Positions 40,394 to 49,070 of a DNA stretch of 64,000 nucleotides are shown piece after piece. A program made the translations under genes and the position numbers. The notes under the pieces were generated by a model, which saw only the letters and a list, made by a program, of their open reading frames with translations, was not told where the DNA came from and ran no database searches. Origin of the DNA: Spirochaetia bacterium. Lineage in GTDB: Bacteria > Spirochaetota > Spirochaetia > SP-2023. Position 1 is the first letter of the stretch; every line of letters begins with the position of its first letter. The stretch is taken from NCBI GenBank assembly GCA_965263295.1, contig OZ253665.1, positions 416,001 to 480,000 of the forward strand, in the 5' to 3' direction.

Positions 40394-41149
40394 ATGAAGC
40401 AAGAAATTCACGCTGTAATTTTTGATCTTGATGGAACCCTGGCCAACAGTGAGCCGGTGTATCGCCAGACTGAGCATTGGTTGGCCGAGCATTTGAATGT
40501 CGCGTTTGCAGAGCAAGGCCCTAATGACTTTGTGAGTGTCAGCACGGAAGAATATATGGAGTGCTTGCGTCAGCATCACGAGCTAGATATTCCCACAGAG
40601 GAACTTTGTAAACTGCAGACCCGGCTATTTCTGAAAAAGGGCATTGAAAAAGTGCGGCCTTTCAATCCGACAATTGACTTTTTAAAGTCGCTACATATTA
40701 ACCAGATTCCTAGTGGTCTGGCTTCGGATTCAGAAAAAGAAATCATTCAGGCCATCCTGAGGCAACTGCGCCTTGAACCATATTTTCAGGTGACGCTGTC
40801 TAGCTGTGAAGTCGGCAGTGGCAAGCCTAAGCCGGCTCCTGATGTCTTCTTGGAGTGTGCCCGGCAGCTCAAAATCGCGCCAGGCTTTTGCTTGGTGCTT
40901 GAAGATTCCGTTGTGGGAATGCGGGCGGCGAAGTCTGCGGGTATGGCCGTTATTACGATTGACAGTCAGCCACCGGCCACTAATTCGCGGAAAAATCAGT
41001 ATTTGGCCGAATTGCGCCAGGCCGATTTGCATTTTGCATGTATGGAAGAATTTAACTTAATGCCCATATTGAATCAGTTTGATATCCGGCGTCGCGCAAA
41101 AGGGAACCACGAAATTACACGAAAGGTGGCGAAAGGGCACGAAATTTAG
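40394..41149 (+). CDS. HAD-family phosphatase (beta-PGM/CbbY-like); C-terminus supplied by the repeat
   Basis: IFDLDGTL, KPAPDVFL, LEDS; last residues KGNHEITRKVAKGHEI* are encoded by repeat copy 2. Confidence 0.9.
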   Translation: MKQEIHAVIFDLDGTLANSEPVYRQTEHWLAEHLNVAFAEQGPNDFVSVSTEEYMECLRQHHELDIPTEELCKLQTRLFLKKGIEKVRPFNPTIDFLKSLHINQIPSGLASDSEKEIIQAILRQLRLEPYFQVTLSSCEVGSGKPKPAPDVFLECARQLKIAPGFCLVLEDSVVGMRAAKSAGMAVITIDSQPPATNSRKNQYLAELRQADLHFACMEEFNLMPILNQFDIRRRAKGNHEITRKVAKGHEI

Positions 41150-41395
41150 GCTGGGGAGCTGTGGGGGGCACGACGGGGAACTGTAGGCGCCAGGGGAAAG
41201 CAGAAAAGGGGGCCGAATGCACGACGGGAGCTGGGGGGGGCGTCTAGGCAGCAGGCGCGGTGTTTTAGAATTTTTGGTGTCGTTCGTTCTTTTTTGGTGT
41301 ATTTCGTGGTTACGGGGCCAGGGACTGTTAGGGGAGGGACCACGAAAGGGCACGAAATGGAGACGGGGGAACCATAGGGGGCTCGCGGGGCTGCC
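41098..41395 (+). repeat. Modular inverted-arm repeat, copy 2 (complete hairpin plus a second left arm)
   Basis: aaccacgaaattacacgaaaggtggcgaaagggcacgaaat, G-rich spacer, ...tttggtgtatttcgtggttac, ggggccagggactgt, accacgaaagggcacgaaat. Confidence 0.9.
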
Positions 41396-41428
41396 TTAAA
41401 GCTGTTTACGAGATATAAGAAAAATTTT

Positions 41429-41689
41429 TTATTCATAATGCGTCCACATCCTTATGACTTTAATAATTTTTTCTTCTTGTAATACTTGGTAGACAATCCG
41501 ATGCTGAATGTTGATTCGGCATGAATATGCGCCGGTTAAATCTCCCGCGAGTTTCTCGTAGCGTGGATGTTGGGGAAACGGATTTTCCCGTAGCGCATGC
41601 AATATTTCTTCTGTTTTTGGCTTGAGGTTTGAGCTGGCCAGTTTCTTGGCATCTTTTTGTGCCTGTTTGGTGAATAATAACTGGTACAT
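41429..41689 (-). CDS. yoeB: Txe/YoeB-family toxin
   Basis: FTKQAQKDAKKL, NPF, YEKLAGDLTGAYSCRINIQHRIVY, RMWTHYE. Confidence 0.93.
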   Translation of the reverse strand: MYQLLFTKQAQKDAKKLASSNLKPKTEEILHALRENPFPQHPRYEKLAGDLTGAYSCRINIQHRIVYQVLQEEKIIKVIRMWTHYE

Positions 41690-46172: not shown

Positions 46173-46403
46173 GCCCCCTGAACTGAACCACGAAAGGGGA
46201 CCACGAAAAGCACGAAAGAGTAACCACGAAAAGCACGAAAGACGGCGAAAAGTCACGAAATCTAGACAGGTAAGCCGCGGGGGGCACGACGGGAGGCGCG
46301 GTGTTTTAGAATTTTTAGAATTTTCGTGTTGTTCGTACTTTTTTAGTGTTTTTCGTGGTTAAGGGCCAGGGACTCTGTGGGGGGAACGACGGGGAGCTGC
46401 GGG
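46173..46403 (+). repeat. Modular inverted-arm repeat, copy 4 (complete, expanded left arm)
   Basis: ctgaaccacgaaagggg accacgaaaag cacgaaagagta accacgaaaag cacgaaagacggcgaaaagt cacgaaat ... ttttcgtgttgttcgtacttttttagtgtttttcgtggtta. Confidence 0.92.
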
Positions 46404-46475
46404 ATCATCACCTTCACAGTTTCATAGCTGAGTTCAGCAGTTATTTTTTAATGTTTATTTAATGTTTATTTAAGG

Positions 46476-48959
46476 ATGCTTATGTCAAAGCAAAAACATG
46501 TCATTATTTTCTTTTGCCTGCGGGCTATCTGGGCGACTATTCTGGCCGGGGCTATATTTAGCTGTGACCTGAATAACGATGGCCGGAAATACGACGGGGA
46601 AAGCAAACTGAGTAAGATTAAGGCCCTAGAAGGCTCTTATACCGCCGCCGCGGACGAAGACGCCATCAGTCTGGAGGCTGACCAGCTGCCCTCTGCTGTT
46701 TCTGTTGCGGAGCTGTTGGGCACGGTAGCGCTGCGAGACATCGGGCTGCAAGACTTTGAATTAGAGCTGCGCGCCGATGATTCCACAGGAACCCTGGTGC
46801 TGACGATCTATCCCGATGGGATTCAGCCCCCCGATGGCCCCAATAACATGGTGGGCATGGTGGTAAAGACCATTCACATTCGGGGGTTCCGGGCGGTGTC
46901 AACCTCGCAGGAATCGACCGCTTCGGGGGTGACTTCGGAGTTAAACGATCAGGTCGCTCAATCTTATGAGGAAGAGGTCCCATCTATGGATATCAGGGCT
47001 CTGGGGCTGGGCTGCACGAAGAGGGCCAGTGAAATTTCCGCGTCCGATTTGCCGTCGGCACTGACCGAGAATCTACAAAACAGTGGACAACGTCTGGAAC
47101 TCTTGCCTCACGACTCTGCCGGCGAGCTCTACCTGCTCTTTTTCTATCAAGATATCCCCGATAAATTGGCAGAGATATATGTGGTAAAAGGTTTTAGAAA
47201 GGGACCAGCTGTAAAGGTAGAATTTTCTCCGAAGCCGAAAAATCTGTACCATACGGGGGATGAACTGCCCATTTCCGTAAAAGTTCAAAACCTGCGGGAG
47301 AATAGCTACCTGAAGCACAAGTATCGAAAATCGGGGGTAATGGCTGACGGACTCCCCGTTTTTATATTCTTGGGGTCAGATTTGCTTGGCGTGCTGGCAT
47401 TCCCCTGGGAGACAAGTGAGACGACGAAGATACCGGAGAGCAGGGTTTATTTTGTGAAAGATATTGAGGACGACCATATCTACGAAAGTTCCTTGACTCT
47501 GGAAACACCTAAGTTTATCGACAAAAGCGAGTTAAAAATTGCGACAAAGGCGTATGAAGTAAGGTATGCCAAGCCACATTATGAAGTGAATTTCCAGTTT
47601 GGCTACAAGATGCATCTGAAAGAAATTATCAAGTTTTTTAATCAACATAATAAAGATGAAACAGGATTAGCCCTTAAAGGGGTTTACGCGGAATACTATC
47701 GGCTCTGCAAAAACTACCGGGGCAAGTACCCGAGCTTGGACCCCAATGGTATAAAAAACGAAACGCTGAAGGAGTACGTAACCAAATGCCAAAAAGAGAT
47801 TGAACAAAAAGAGAAGGAAATAGAAGCTCATAAAAGGCATATTAAAAAGTATGGAAAATTTTATAAAATTAGTAGCCTCTGCTTTAAAGTAATTACTTAT
47901 TTTGAACTTGCATGCTCTGCCGTTTCAGTAGCCGCGACGGGAGGAGCCACTTTGCCCGCCTTTTTAACGTCCTTGGCCATTAATGAGGCAATGTGGATGA
48001 GTGATAACATTACAAAAGATGGCAAAGTTACAAAGGAAGAGGGTTCGGCGGAGGAGCTAGTAGAAGGCCCAGCTTCTGCTCCTCCCCTATGGGGGGAGGT
48101 GGATATATCGCCAGATGGTGGGGCGGACACGATTGTAAACATTCCCGCTTTCAAAGCGCATGAAGGCGGACCAGGGCTAGCTGCATGTTTAGGTTCCGGT
48201 ATTAAAACCGGTACTAAAATAATAAAAAAGGGAACCGAACTGTTCCGTCCGTCCGCCGACCCCCCAGAGCTGAAAAGATTCAAGCCTGTAGGTAAGATGG
48301 TACAAAGCAAGGGATTCAAACGAGGATCTCTAATGAGTACATTTGCCAGCGCTGCTATCAATTTTGCCAGCTTTGCCAAATCAAAAAAAATGGCGAAGAA
48401 AGCCAAACGCCTTCAACAAGAGAAACAGCTCTTGGAATTTGAAAGAAAGATGCTGGAAGATTTGGAAAATGATCACGGGGCTAGAGATACAATAATCGCC
48501 TGTGAAGAAGGCAAGGCTCAGGGTAAAGTAGACCTAAAAGGTGACGAGTTTTGCGTAAACGACTCTTATGAGATGATCAAGGAGGAACTAGATGAAAAAA
48601 TGAAAAATAACAGAGATCCGCTGGACAAGGGATATAGAGGTCGCCTCTACAATATAATGTCATGCCGGTGCAACGGCAAAGAAGAATTTATTTATCAAAC
48701 GATCAAATACGACCACAAAGAGTCGGGAGCGCGGATAAATAATTATGCCGATCATTTTTATAAGTTGAATGAACGCGGAGAAATTATTTACAGAGCTTCG
48801 GGAGAGAAAGTCGACAACGTGCTCGACATGTACGGCGATCATTACCCCGGCCTGGAGCACCGCACGAATGACGAGGTGAGCGCCGAAATCGTGGATTACA
48901 CCAATGAGCTGCTGGATGAGCATCCAGAACCGGTAAACTGCTGGAGCCCCGCCAGCTGA
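46476..48959 (+). CDS. Large lipoprotein with two Lipoprotein_17-like repeats, coiled coils and a hydrophobic toxin-like segment
   Basis: Lipobox AIFSC; LPSAV...ADDSTGTL...IRGFR and RASEI...PHDSAGEL...VKGFR; segment SAVSVAATGGATLPAFLTSLAI; stop TGA lies inside repeat copy 5. Confidence 0.7.
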   Translation: MLMSKQKHVIIFFCLRAIWATILAGAIFSCDLNNDGRKYDGESKLSKIKALEGSYTAAADEDAISLEADQLPSAVSVAELLGTVALRDIGLQDFELELRADDSTGTLVLTIYPDGIQPPDGPNNMVGMVVKTIHIRGFRAVSTSQESTASGVTSELNDQVAQSYEEEVPSMDIRALGLGCTKRASEISASDLPSALTENLQNSGQRLELLPHDSAGELYLLFFYQDIPDKLAEIYVVKGFRKGPAVKVEFSPKPKNLYHTGDELPISVKVQNLRENSYLKHKYRKSGVMADGLPVFIFLGSDLLGVLAFPWETSETTKIPESRVYFVKDIEDDHIYESSLTLETPKFIDKSELKIATKAYEVRYAKPHYEVNFQFGYKMHLKEIIKFFNQHNKDETGLALKGVYAEYYRLCKNYRGKYPSLDPNGIKNETLKEYVTKCQKEIEQKEKEIEAHKRHIKKYGKFYKISSLCFKVITYFELACSAVSVAATGGATLPAFLTSLAINEAMWMSDNITKDGKVTKEEGSAEELVEGPASAPPLWGEVDISPDGGADTIVNIPAFKAHEGGPGLAACLGSGIKTGTKIIKKGTELFRPSADPPELKRFKPVGKMVQSKGFKRGSLMSTFASAAINFASFAKSKKMAKKAKRLQQEKQLLEFERKMLEDLENDHGARDTIIACEEGKAQGKVDLKGDEFCVNDSYEMIKEELDEKMKNNRDPLDKGYRGRLYNIMSCRCNGKEEFIYQTIKYDHKESGARINNYADHFYKLNERGEIIYRASGEKVDNVLDMYGDHYPGLEHRTNDEVSAEIVDYTNELLDEHPEPVNCWSPAS

Positions 48960-49070
48960 ACCTCGAAAGAGTAACCACGAAAGTGCACGAAGACTACGAA
49001 AGGGCACGAAATCTAGACGGGGGAGCCGCAGGTGGCACGACGGAGAACTGTGGGAGGAACGACGGGCCAG
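48948..49070 (+). repeat. Modular inverted-arm repeat, copy 5 (left arm and spacer only)
   Basis: First 22 bp cccgccagctgaacctcgaaag are identical to 6081-6102, then agtaaccacgaaagtgcacgaagactacgaaagggcacgaaatctagacggggg. Confidence 0.9.

What the first reader, a model, noticed from the sequence alone, without database searches (positions are those of the whole stretch)
41098..49070. Cassette-like array: repeat-[TA]-repeat-[lipoprotein pair]-repeat-[lipoprotein]-repeat between core genes
Seen: between the HAD gene and dnaE, four co-oriented repeat copies partition 8 kb into three units. These are a reverse-oriented TA module with its own promoter, two lipoproteins, and a third lipoprotein, with each plus-strand unit ending at or within a few bp of the next repeat. 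Established: integron arrays have gene-plus-hairpin-site units and often carry inverted self-promoted TA cassettes. The sites here lack attC RYYYAAC/GTTRRRY ends and no intI is in view. Inference: an integron-analogous gene capture or shuffling platform for surface proteins, stabilised by a TA module. This is the best candidate in the window for an undescribed system.
Basis: partly seen in the sequence, partly recalled or inferred. Interest (0 to 1): 0.85.

Follow-up and report, generated by a model that had tools for sequence, protein, structure and literature searches.

The report
Nuclease-linked repeats framing variable lipoproteins
Four partial copies of a genome-wide hairpin repeat, matching the arms that flank a small uncharacterised nuclease gene in many bacteria, bracket a toxin-antitoxin pair and three predicted surface-lipoprotein genes whose sequences differ sharply in other assemblies, and they likely act as recombination anchors for copying and swapping such genes rather than as integron-style cut-and-paste sites.

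Summary
The layout is real: four co-oriented repeats separate a reversed YefM-YoeB pair, two lipoproteins and a third lipoprotein between the HAD gene and dnaE. But the repeat is not local: it marks 72 places in this 2.4-Mb genome, and its words are the inverted arms that flank GxxExxY (PD-(D/E)xK) nuclease genes across phyla; the genome's one GxxExxY gene sits in the largest array. Cassette-like signs hold genome-wide: 35 of 37 close repeat pairs are direct, only 9 of 51 enclosed genes match a congener, 27 of 78 dispersed duplications end at a repeat (chance 1.8), and both TA modules found lie reversed beside one. It is no integron: no IntI, no attC ends, four different partial forms. Contigs of other samples show the lipoprotein alleles replaced in place (38-96% protein identity) with breakpoints inside genes; no excision or reordering was seen, but contigs break at the repeats. 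Best reading: a Neisseria NIME/SsnA-like system built on another nuclease family; the nuclease's role is untested. The scan noted this repeat family before, in other genomes and elsewhere in this one; I found it in no paper searched.

The parts
40394..41149 (+). HAD-family hydrolase; its last 15 codons and stop are supplied by repeat copy 1
   Evidence: Pfam HAD_2; two congener orthologues stop 3 residues after the aligned F-x-I, this one 20 residues after
41098..41400 (+). Repeat copy 1: left arm of tandem CACGAAA words (41105-41145), G-rich spacer, T-rich right arm (41263-41313), junction GGCCAGGGACT, short left arm (41339-41358)
   Evidence: folds at -28.9 kcal/mol on + strand
41429..41692 (-). 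YoeB/ParE-type toxin (87 aa)
   Evidence: Pfam ParE_toxin 2e-10 and YoeB_toxin 3.7e-9; only PF05016 match in the genome
41689..41931 (-). YefM/Phd antitoxin (80 aa)
   Evidence: Pfam PhdYeFM_antitox 2.8e-13; only match in the genome
42006..42120 (+). Repeat copy 2: right arm (42013-42035), junction, left arm (42059-42079), spacer start
   Evidence: right arm can pair with the following left arm, -9.6 kcal/mol
42121..42415 (+). Promoter/leader of LP1; 42133-42392 is 92% identical to the DNA in front of an LP3 paralogue elsewhere in the genome
   Evidence: sigma-70-like site 42129-42156
42416..44083 (+). Lipoprotein LP1 (555 aa, lipobox LLQGC); alleles of 85% and 38% identity elsewhere
44105..46171 (+). 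Lipoprotein LP2 (likely start 44141, lipobox LFAC); an 82% allele is near-identical over residues 13-325 and replaced over about 491-605
46186..46396 (+). Repeat copy 3: tandem left arms, spacer, right arm (ends 46361), junction
46397..46475 (+). LP3 leader shared with both LP3 paralogues
46476..48959 (+). Lipoprotein LP3 (likely start 46482, lipobox IFSC); two paralogues at 54-55% in the genome, each next to a repeat; alleles of 96% and 88% with a variable block near residues 500-620
48949..49070 (+). Repeat copy 4: left arm and spacer start only; overlaps the LP3 stop
   Evidence: its first 17 nt occur at only one other place in the genome, window 6082
   Evidence: 76-81% identical single orthologues in three congeners; same C-terminus
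6081..6296 (+). Fifth repeat copy in the window, joined on the right to a fragment of a gene family that lies beside repeats at other loci

Best explanation
The four repeats are partial copies of a hairpin-forming element whose arms flank GxxExxY nuclease genes in many bacteria and which has multiplied to 72 loci in this genome; they likely serve as co-oriented recombination anchors, possibly nicked by the genome's one GxxExxY nuclease, through which lipoprotein and toxin-antitoxin genes would be inserted and copied between loci, while the lipoprotein alleles inside them are exchanged in place. Shown: the arms' identity with GxxExxY arms, the expansion, the direct orientation, the non-core cargo, duplications ending at repeats, same-slot divergent alleles with breakpoints inside genes. 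Inferred: (1) gene and arms arrived by horizontal transfer; (2) gene-less copies spread with flanking bases attached, by recombination rather than precise transposition; (3) one crossover falls in a repeat and the other in shared promoter or gene sequence (RecA-type), as proposed for Neisseria NIME arrays; (4) incoming DNA comes by transformation (ComEC, DprA present); (5) the nuclease recognises the arms. This interval would have been built stepwise: LP1-LP2 plus a repeat now separate a promoter from the LP3 leader that it directly precedes at a sister locus, and the TA sits between a left and a right arm.
For: 58 of 80 GxxExxY relatives have CACGAA within 150 nt upstream, 55 of 80 TTCGTG downstream, 48 of 80 both; many of the rest show variant words. 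One GxxExxY gene in the genome, catalytic-type residues E38, D78, E88, K90 kept, inside the biggest array. 107 words here versus 13, 4 and 5 in three congeners. 35 of 37 close pairs direct (21 of 23 outside the big cluster) versus 18 of 34 distant pairs. 9 of 51 enclosed genes versus 1107 of 1696 others match congener G003. 26 of 69 repeat gaps versus 45 of 576 control gaps touch a lipoprotein-like gene. 27 of 78 dispersed duplicated loci end within 60 nt of a repeat; 500 rotations gave mean 1.8, maximum 7. Ends are not fixed and no target duplication excess, 3 of 26 versus 3.7. A 2019-nt contig leaves the window sequence after 42370 and rejoins it at 44314-44393 (span 2024), mostly under 80% alike; protein alleles 38-96% with block-wise differences, while flanks and TA differ by 0.1-0.6% in the same runs. 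ComEC and two DprA matches. Precedent: PMC1797815 (passages), PMC11893778 (abstract, sections 7, 12).
Against: No activity of any GxxExxY protein is shown; the family is listed as 'Unknown' in PMC3424549 (passage) and has no solved relative by sequence. The breakpoints seen in this interval lie in unique DNA, so they do not by themselves need the repeats. Repeats could simply pile up where selection is weak; the counts are inflated by paralogues and by one large cluster. No empty site was found: 0 of 35 clusters are syntenic in G003, but controls with similar gaps are syntenic only 20 of 132 and 5 of 105 times. Not all cargo is accessory (an M17 peptidase lies between two copies). The arm words at the 5' end of the genome's own GxxExxY gene are decayed. 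Strain evidence is short contigs from 2 studies plus unplaced proteins.
Confidence: 0.55

Rival explanations
1. Passive selfish repeats: the arms spread as REP/MITE-like junk and survive mainly in accessory, weakly selected regions; lipoprotein variation is ordinary homologous recombination under diversifying selection and would be the same without them.
For: Allele breakpoints inside genes; single copies between core genes exist (loci with no non-core gene between flanks); copies are ragged and variable; 24 of 35 clusters follow the leading strand (p 0.04), which may explain part of the co-orientation.
Against: Duplicated units end at the repeats 15 times more often than chance; sister genes keep the same position and direction relative to the arms at 5 or more loci; both TA modules found lie reversed beside a repeat; distant pairs are not co-oriented (18 of 34) although close ones are (35 of 37).
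Confidence: 0.25
2. Integron-like platform: each repeat is a site-specific recombination site; units are excised as circles and re-inserted, with GxxExxY or a host enzyme in place of IntI, and the TA keeps the array from being lost.
For: Direct orientation, stop codons inside sites, reversed TA modules, nine tandem repeat-gene units at another locus, hairpins with AAC...GTT at their base; arms also border other genes, such as restriction-modification genes, near GxxExxY relatives (gene names read from the sequences, not from a call).
Against: No IntI (best 71 bits, cut-off 265), only two Xer-like recombinases; attC-type ends in 1 of 70 copies; sites differ in form and have no fixed ends; a 2.5-kb duplication starts at a repeat and ends in unique DNA; units stay linked and ordered as far as contigs reach; a PD-(D/E)xK fold is a nuclease, not a recombinase (general knowledge).
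Confidence: 0.15
3. Regulatory RNA or terminator-like element placed at lipoprotein gene ends to control transcripts.
For: 27 of 72 copies begin within 60 nt of a co-oriented stop codon; the + strand folds better than the - strand in each of 5 copies.
Against: No Rfam match; many copies follow an ordinary terminator or are arm fragments that cannot pair; lengths run from 18 to 2595 nt; does not explain duplication ends.
Confidence: 0.05

Closest known systems
Neisseria NIME/dRS3 repeat arrays (PMC1797815, passages) with SsnA nuclease and NTS repeats (PMC11893778, abstract, sections 7 and 12)
   Same: Small nuclease gene flanked by its own hairpin repeats; repeats expanded in one lineage; mosaic arrays of short inverted arms and variable spacers beside surface-protein genes; flanking alleles far more divergent than neighbours; competence genes present.
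   Different: Nuclease is PD-(D/E)xK (PF13366), not GIY-YIG; arms are tandem 9-10-nt words, not a 20-bp palindrome; here the repeats are locally all direct and enclose whole genes and TA modules; no activity shown.
REP/REPIN/BIME elements with RAYT (TnpA-REP) (search listings of PMC3479197 and PMC3733652 only; rest recalled)
   Same: Extragenic hairpin repeats tied to one gene of their own, forming mosaic tandem arrays.
   Different: No Y1 transposase in the genome; repeats concentrate on accessory lipoprotein genes instead of general intergenic space.
Integron cassette arrays / CALINs (recalled)
   Same: Direct gene-site units, stop codons within sites, reversed TA modules, non-core cargo.
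   Different: No IntI, no attC consensus ends, no uniform site, dispersed over 35 clusters, variation seen inside genes.
Composite transposons of MITEs (recalled)
   Same: Two direct copies of an inverted-arm element bracket cargo that recurs at other loci.
   Different: No fixed ends, no target-site duplication excess, no matching transposase found.

Membership tests
Integron | IntI tyrosine recombinase | tested here: not met
   TIGR02249 best 71 bits against cut-off 265; the two PF00589 matches lie among core genes; genome one contig, 92.6% complete by markers
Integron | attC ends RYYYAAC / GTTRRRY | tested here: not met
   1 of 70 copies has such an end; usual contexts are AGGG/GGGG/GAGT-AAC and GTT-ACTT/ACTC
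Integron | Sites in direct orientation between genes | tested here: met
   35 of 37 close pairs
Integron | One uniform site per cassette with a fixed crossover point | tested here: not met
   four different partial forms here; ragged ends genome-wide
Integron | Excision as circles, gain, loss or reordering of cassettes | tested here: inconclusive
   only contigs, which break at the repeats; joints within repeats are not interpretable
Ssn-NTS / NIME | Single-domain GIY-YIG nuclease (Ssn) | tested here: not met
   only GIY-YIG match lies in a 687-aa frame
Ssn-NTS / NIME | Nuclease gene flanked by the repeat that is expanded in the genome | tested here: met
   with a GxxExxY gene instead
Ssn-NTS / NIME | Arrays beside surface-protein genes with raised allele divergence | tested here: met
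   26 of 69 versus 45 of 576; divergence shown for this one locus only
Ssn-NTS / NIME | Sequence-specific cutting of single-stranded DNA; effect on transformation | not testable with these tools
   needs protein and culture
REP-RAYT | Y1 (HUH) transposase gene | tested here: not met
   PF01797 no match
REP-RAYT | Extragenic hairpin repeats in mosaic arrays | tested here: met
MITE / composite transposon | Target-site duplication and fixed ends | tested here: not met
   3 of 26 two-armed loci versus 3.7 in shuffles; ends assigned from the arm words, so a duplication further out could be missed
MITE / composite transposon | Cognate transposase with matching ends | tested here: inconclusive
   IS110 and Y1 families absent; DDE families not searched; decayed IS5-like remnants seen (label recalled)
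GxxExxY arm element (no description found in print) | Same tandem words in inverted arms around PF13366 genes | tested here: met
   48 of 80 relatives with both arms; genome's gene followed directly by a right arm

The most novel reading that the evidence does not exclude
A recombinase-free integron analogue: the GxxExxY nuclease nicks its hairpin arms in single-stranded DNA so that arm-bounded genes are captured, copied and shuffled, and this spirochaete-like bacterium has domesticated the system into a genome-wide platform for diversifying surface lipoproteins, guarded by TA modules.
Probability: 0.2. Interest if true: 0.85.

Novelty: new variant of a known kind. Interest (0 to 1): 0.6.

Why it matters
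NIME-type arrays were described as specific to Neisseria (PMC1797815, passage) and their nuclease partner was found only in 2025. A second, unrelated nuclease family (PF13366, function unknown) with its own repeat expanded around variable surface lipoproteins would make this a recurring way to diversify surface proteins. It also gives a very widespread uncharacterised nuclease family a concrete DNA target and an in-genome phenotype, both testable with oligonucleotides and one small protein.

Tried and rejected
Empty site in congeners: HAD and dnaE have unrelated neighbours in G001, G002, G003 and 0 of 35 clusters are syntenic in G003: uninformative, since the genus is heavily rearranged. Joints in the first read-laying: those lying within repeats cannot be told from other copies; the 42392-46397 joint is explained by the LP3 paralogue locus. 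Low depth of LP1 in run X3 (20-25 against 98-123) first suggested loss of the unit; one search showed a same-length divergent allele at depth 73.8 instead; depth is no share of cells and is used only as a hint. No cover of the LP3 core in X5: a hole at low depth, not used. No RNA holder listed. Junction pattern in metagenome contigs: 0 matches. LP3 in the protein atlas: no usable hit. Rfam: 0. Literature: 'GxxExxY' 3 papers, 2 listed, one mention each, listing only; TIGR04256/PDDEXK_3/PF13366/TIGR02436/PF05635 3 papers (PMC3424549 passage read); multicopy/octanucleotide search led to PMC2700814 and PMC3543383, whose passages describe other tandem-word repeats with no nuclease link (their supplements, not read, may hold such repeats); integron-like/spirochete search, RAYT/REPIN search and a genus-name search gave nothing on this system (listings only). 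Supplements of PMC11893778 were not read and may list further nuclease-repeat pairs. TA survey covered six Pfam families only, so 'both TA modules' means both of those found.
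Full report
Observation. The window is positions 416,001-480,000 of a single 2,407,850-nt contig. Between a HAD hydrolase (40394-41149) and dnaE (49079-52624, minus) lie a reversed YefM-YoeB pair and three long ORFs, LP1 (555 aa), LP2 (688 aa frame) and LP3 (827 aa frame), each with a signal peptide ending in a lipobox cysteine (read from the sequence) and no Pfam family above cut-off. 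Copy 1 supplies the last 15 codons of the HAD gene, whose two congener orthologues are 17 residues shorter at this end; copy 4 holds the stop of LP3. Copy 3 folds as a DNA hairpin on either strand (z -3.55, -3.67). The copies are built from four modules: a left arm of tandem CACGAAA words, a G-rich spacer, a T-rich right arm ending TTCGTGGTTAC, and a junction GGCCAGGGACT. Each copy here is a different partial form. No TA promoter passed the scan threshold.

The repeat is genome-wide. A first BLAST gave 76 merged hits; a stricter mask gave 69 loci (2 of 71 intervals dropped for lacking a core word), and three single arms were added by pattern or by eye, giving 72 loci in 35 clusters. The word TTCGTGGTTA occurs 107 times (reversed control 3), against 13, 4 and 5 in three congeners, so the expansion is particular to this lineage among those searched.

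Where it comes from. The largest array (C1:1.900-1.913 Mb) holds the genome's only PF13366 (PDDEXK_3, GxxExxY) gene, directly followed by a right arm, next to a lipoprotein and nine tandem repeat-gene units. Of 298 relatives found across many phyla, the best 80 were fetched: 58 of 80 have CACGAA within 150 nt upstream, 55 of 80 TTCGTG downstream, 48 of 80 both, and many others show variant words. In an alignment of 50 of these proteins the genome's copy keeps G35-E38-Y41, D78, E88 and K90, the pattern expected of a PD-(D/E)xK site (general knowledge). PMC3424549 lists the family as function unknown with multiple transfers (passage). The arm words at the 5' end of the genome's own gene are decayed. 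In 21 of the 80 loci four or more arm clusters border other genes too, and congener G001 has GxxExxY genes with arms in what read as restriction-modification operons (names recalled).

Cassette-like signs. Consecutive repeats within 6 kb are direct in 35 of 37 cases (21 of 23 outside the big cluster), distant ones in 18 of 34. Against the whole congener genome G003 (match = 35% identity over half the length), 9 of 51 enclosed genes match, versus 1107 of 1696 others; 65 of 71 repeat gaps versus 334 of 575 control gaps have a non-matching neighbour. With a rough lipobox rule, 26 of 69 repeat gaps versus 45 of 576 control gaps touch a lipoprotein. Of 78 dispersed duplicated loci, 27 end within 60 nt of a repeat; 500 rotations gave mean 1.8, maximum 7. 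These counts are not independent (paralogues, one big cluster). LP3 has two paralogues at 54-55% identity, each beside repeats. At one of them the LP1 promoter (92% identical, 260 nt) stands about 100 nt before the LP3 leader; at the other its first 60 nt are fused to the leader. So LP1-LP2 plus copy 3 separate a promoter from the leader it precedes elsewhere (direction of the event inferred). Six TA-type Pfam families were searched: the only modules found are this YefM-YoeB and a MazEF pair, both reversed, touching a repeat, and upstream of a lipoprotein promoter.

Against an integron. No IntI; two tyrosine recombinases among core genes; no Y1 or IS110 transposase; attC-type ends in 1 of 70 copies; no target-duplication excess, 3 of 26 versus 3.7; ends are ragged, the copy at window 6081 shares 17 nt with the LP3 stop region, and a 99.8% identical 2.5-kb duplication begins at a repeat and ends in unique DNA.

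Variation among samples. Six runs hold the stretch; five were laid, all as contigs, from 2 studies; X1 and X2 are one sample and may be the source. In X3 and X5 the HAD side, TA and dnaE differ by 9 of 1623, 3 of 746, 2 of 1938 (X3) and 5 of 1623, 4 of 753, 1 of 1234 (X5), whereas X5 LP1 differs by 81 letters and 19 gaps in about 2020 and LP2 by 42 in 1213. A contig of 2019 nt in X3 (2018 in X1, 1987 in X2) starts at 42370-42373, aligns only in short blocks and, in X3 and X1, rejoins at 44314-44393, inside LP2: a divergent allele in the same slot. Further replaced blocks lie inside LP2 (45576-45916, 348 letters for 339, X3 and X5). Protein searches agree: LP1 alleles at 85% and 38%, LP2 at 82%, LP3 at 96% and 88%. 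The 85/82/96% set all list a longest contig of 480,931 nt and the 38/88% set one of 16,789 nt, which suggests, without showing, that the genes stay together. Differences come in blocks between identical stretches. Contigs reaching copy 1 and copy 4 carry other letters there in X3 or X5, a hint that the repeats themselves vary. No excision, loss or reordering was shown, but contigs break at the repeats, so it is not excluded. Congeners are too rearranged to show an empty site.

Mechanism. Best reading (0.55): the arms of a horizontally acquired GxxExxY element multiplied and now work as co-oriented recombination anchors beside accessory genes, with one crossover in a repeat and the other in shared promoter or gene sequence; ComEC and DprA matches allow for incoming DNA. 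That is the model proposed for Neisseria NIME arrays (PMC1797815, 12 passages read), whose repeats are cut by SsnA, itself encoded between its repeats (PMC11893778, abstract and sections 7 and 12). There SsnA restricts rather than promotes integration of repeat-flanked DNA, so the sign of any effect here is open. That GxxExxY acts on the arms is inference from co-occurrence. Rivals: passive repeats in weakly selected DNA (0.25), integron-like excision (0.15), RNA-level regulation (0.05).

Novelty. It works like NIME/SsnA or REP/RAYT but is a member of neither (no stand-alone GIY-YIG; no Y1). Seven paper searches found no description of GxxExxY arms; the library lacks most subscription journals. 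The scan noted the arms in other genomes and this expansion at its main array; my link to GxxExxY was made before those look-ups (note). What this locus adds is the orientation and cargo counts, the second reversed TA, the promoter-leader mosaic and the in-place allele replacement. Verdict: observation confirmed, interpretation partly supported, new variant of a known kind, interest 0.6.

Noticed in passing
window 42455-42491: TG-rich low-complexity tract in the LP1 signal peptide; an allele has two extra residues there. Possible slippage or phase-variation site.
   Followed up: partly
L001:7645-13542 (G000:C1:1907144-1913041): Nine near-identical small coiled-coil genes in tandem, each followed by a differently built repeat, with varying numbers of an internal peptide repeat; a tenth relative at C1:1929963-1930355.
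   Followed up: partly
L249:4145-4741 and window 6297-6495: Family of about 200-aa proteins (coiled coil plus possible nuclease-like domain, no Pfam above cut-off) lying reversed beside repeats at six loci, one a fragment in this window.
   Followed up: partly
L248:6176-6738: MazE-MazF pair inserted in reverse between a repeat and a lipoprotein promoter; sister lipoprotein loci lack it.
   Followed up: yes
G000:C1:11921, 20831, 107891 and about 15 more loci: A second dispersed family that looks like decayed IS5-type transposase remnants (label recalled), mostly far from the hairpin repeats.
   Followed up: no
G000:C1:1897510-1900054 and 1977029-1979570: 99.8% identical duplication of a 608-aa lipoprotein gene that starts at a repeat and ends about 40 nt into the next gene.
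   Followed up: partly
G000:C1:726107-729560 and 1914960-1918413: Duplicated 3.4-kb block of phage-tail-like genes (label recalled); one copy ends at a repeat array.
   Followed up: no
L001:2243-2310: The left-arm words in the first codons of the genome's GxxExxY gene and the right arm in front of it are decayed, unlike in most relatives; could reflect immobilisation of the gene.
   Followed up: no
L107:5216-6280 and 8242-13310: Congener G001 has a duplicated GxxExxY plus methylase-like block with variant-word arms and another gene bracketed by arms.
   Followed up: no
whole genome: Repeat clusters lean to the leading strand (24 of 35, p 0.04) although genes hardly do (928 of 1747).
   Followed up: partly
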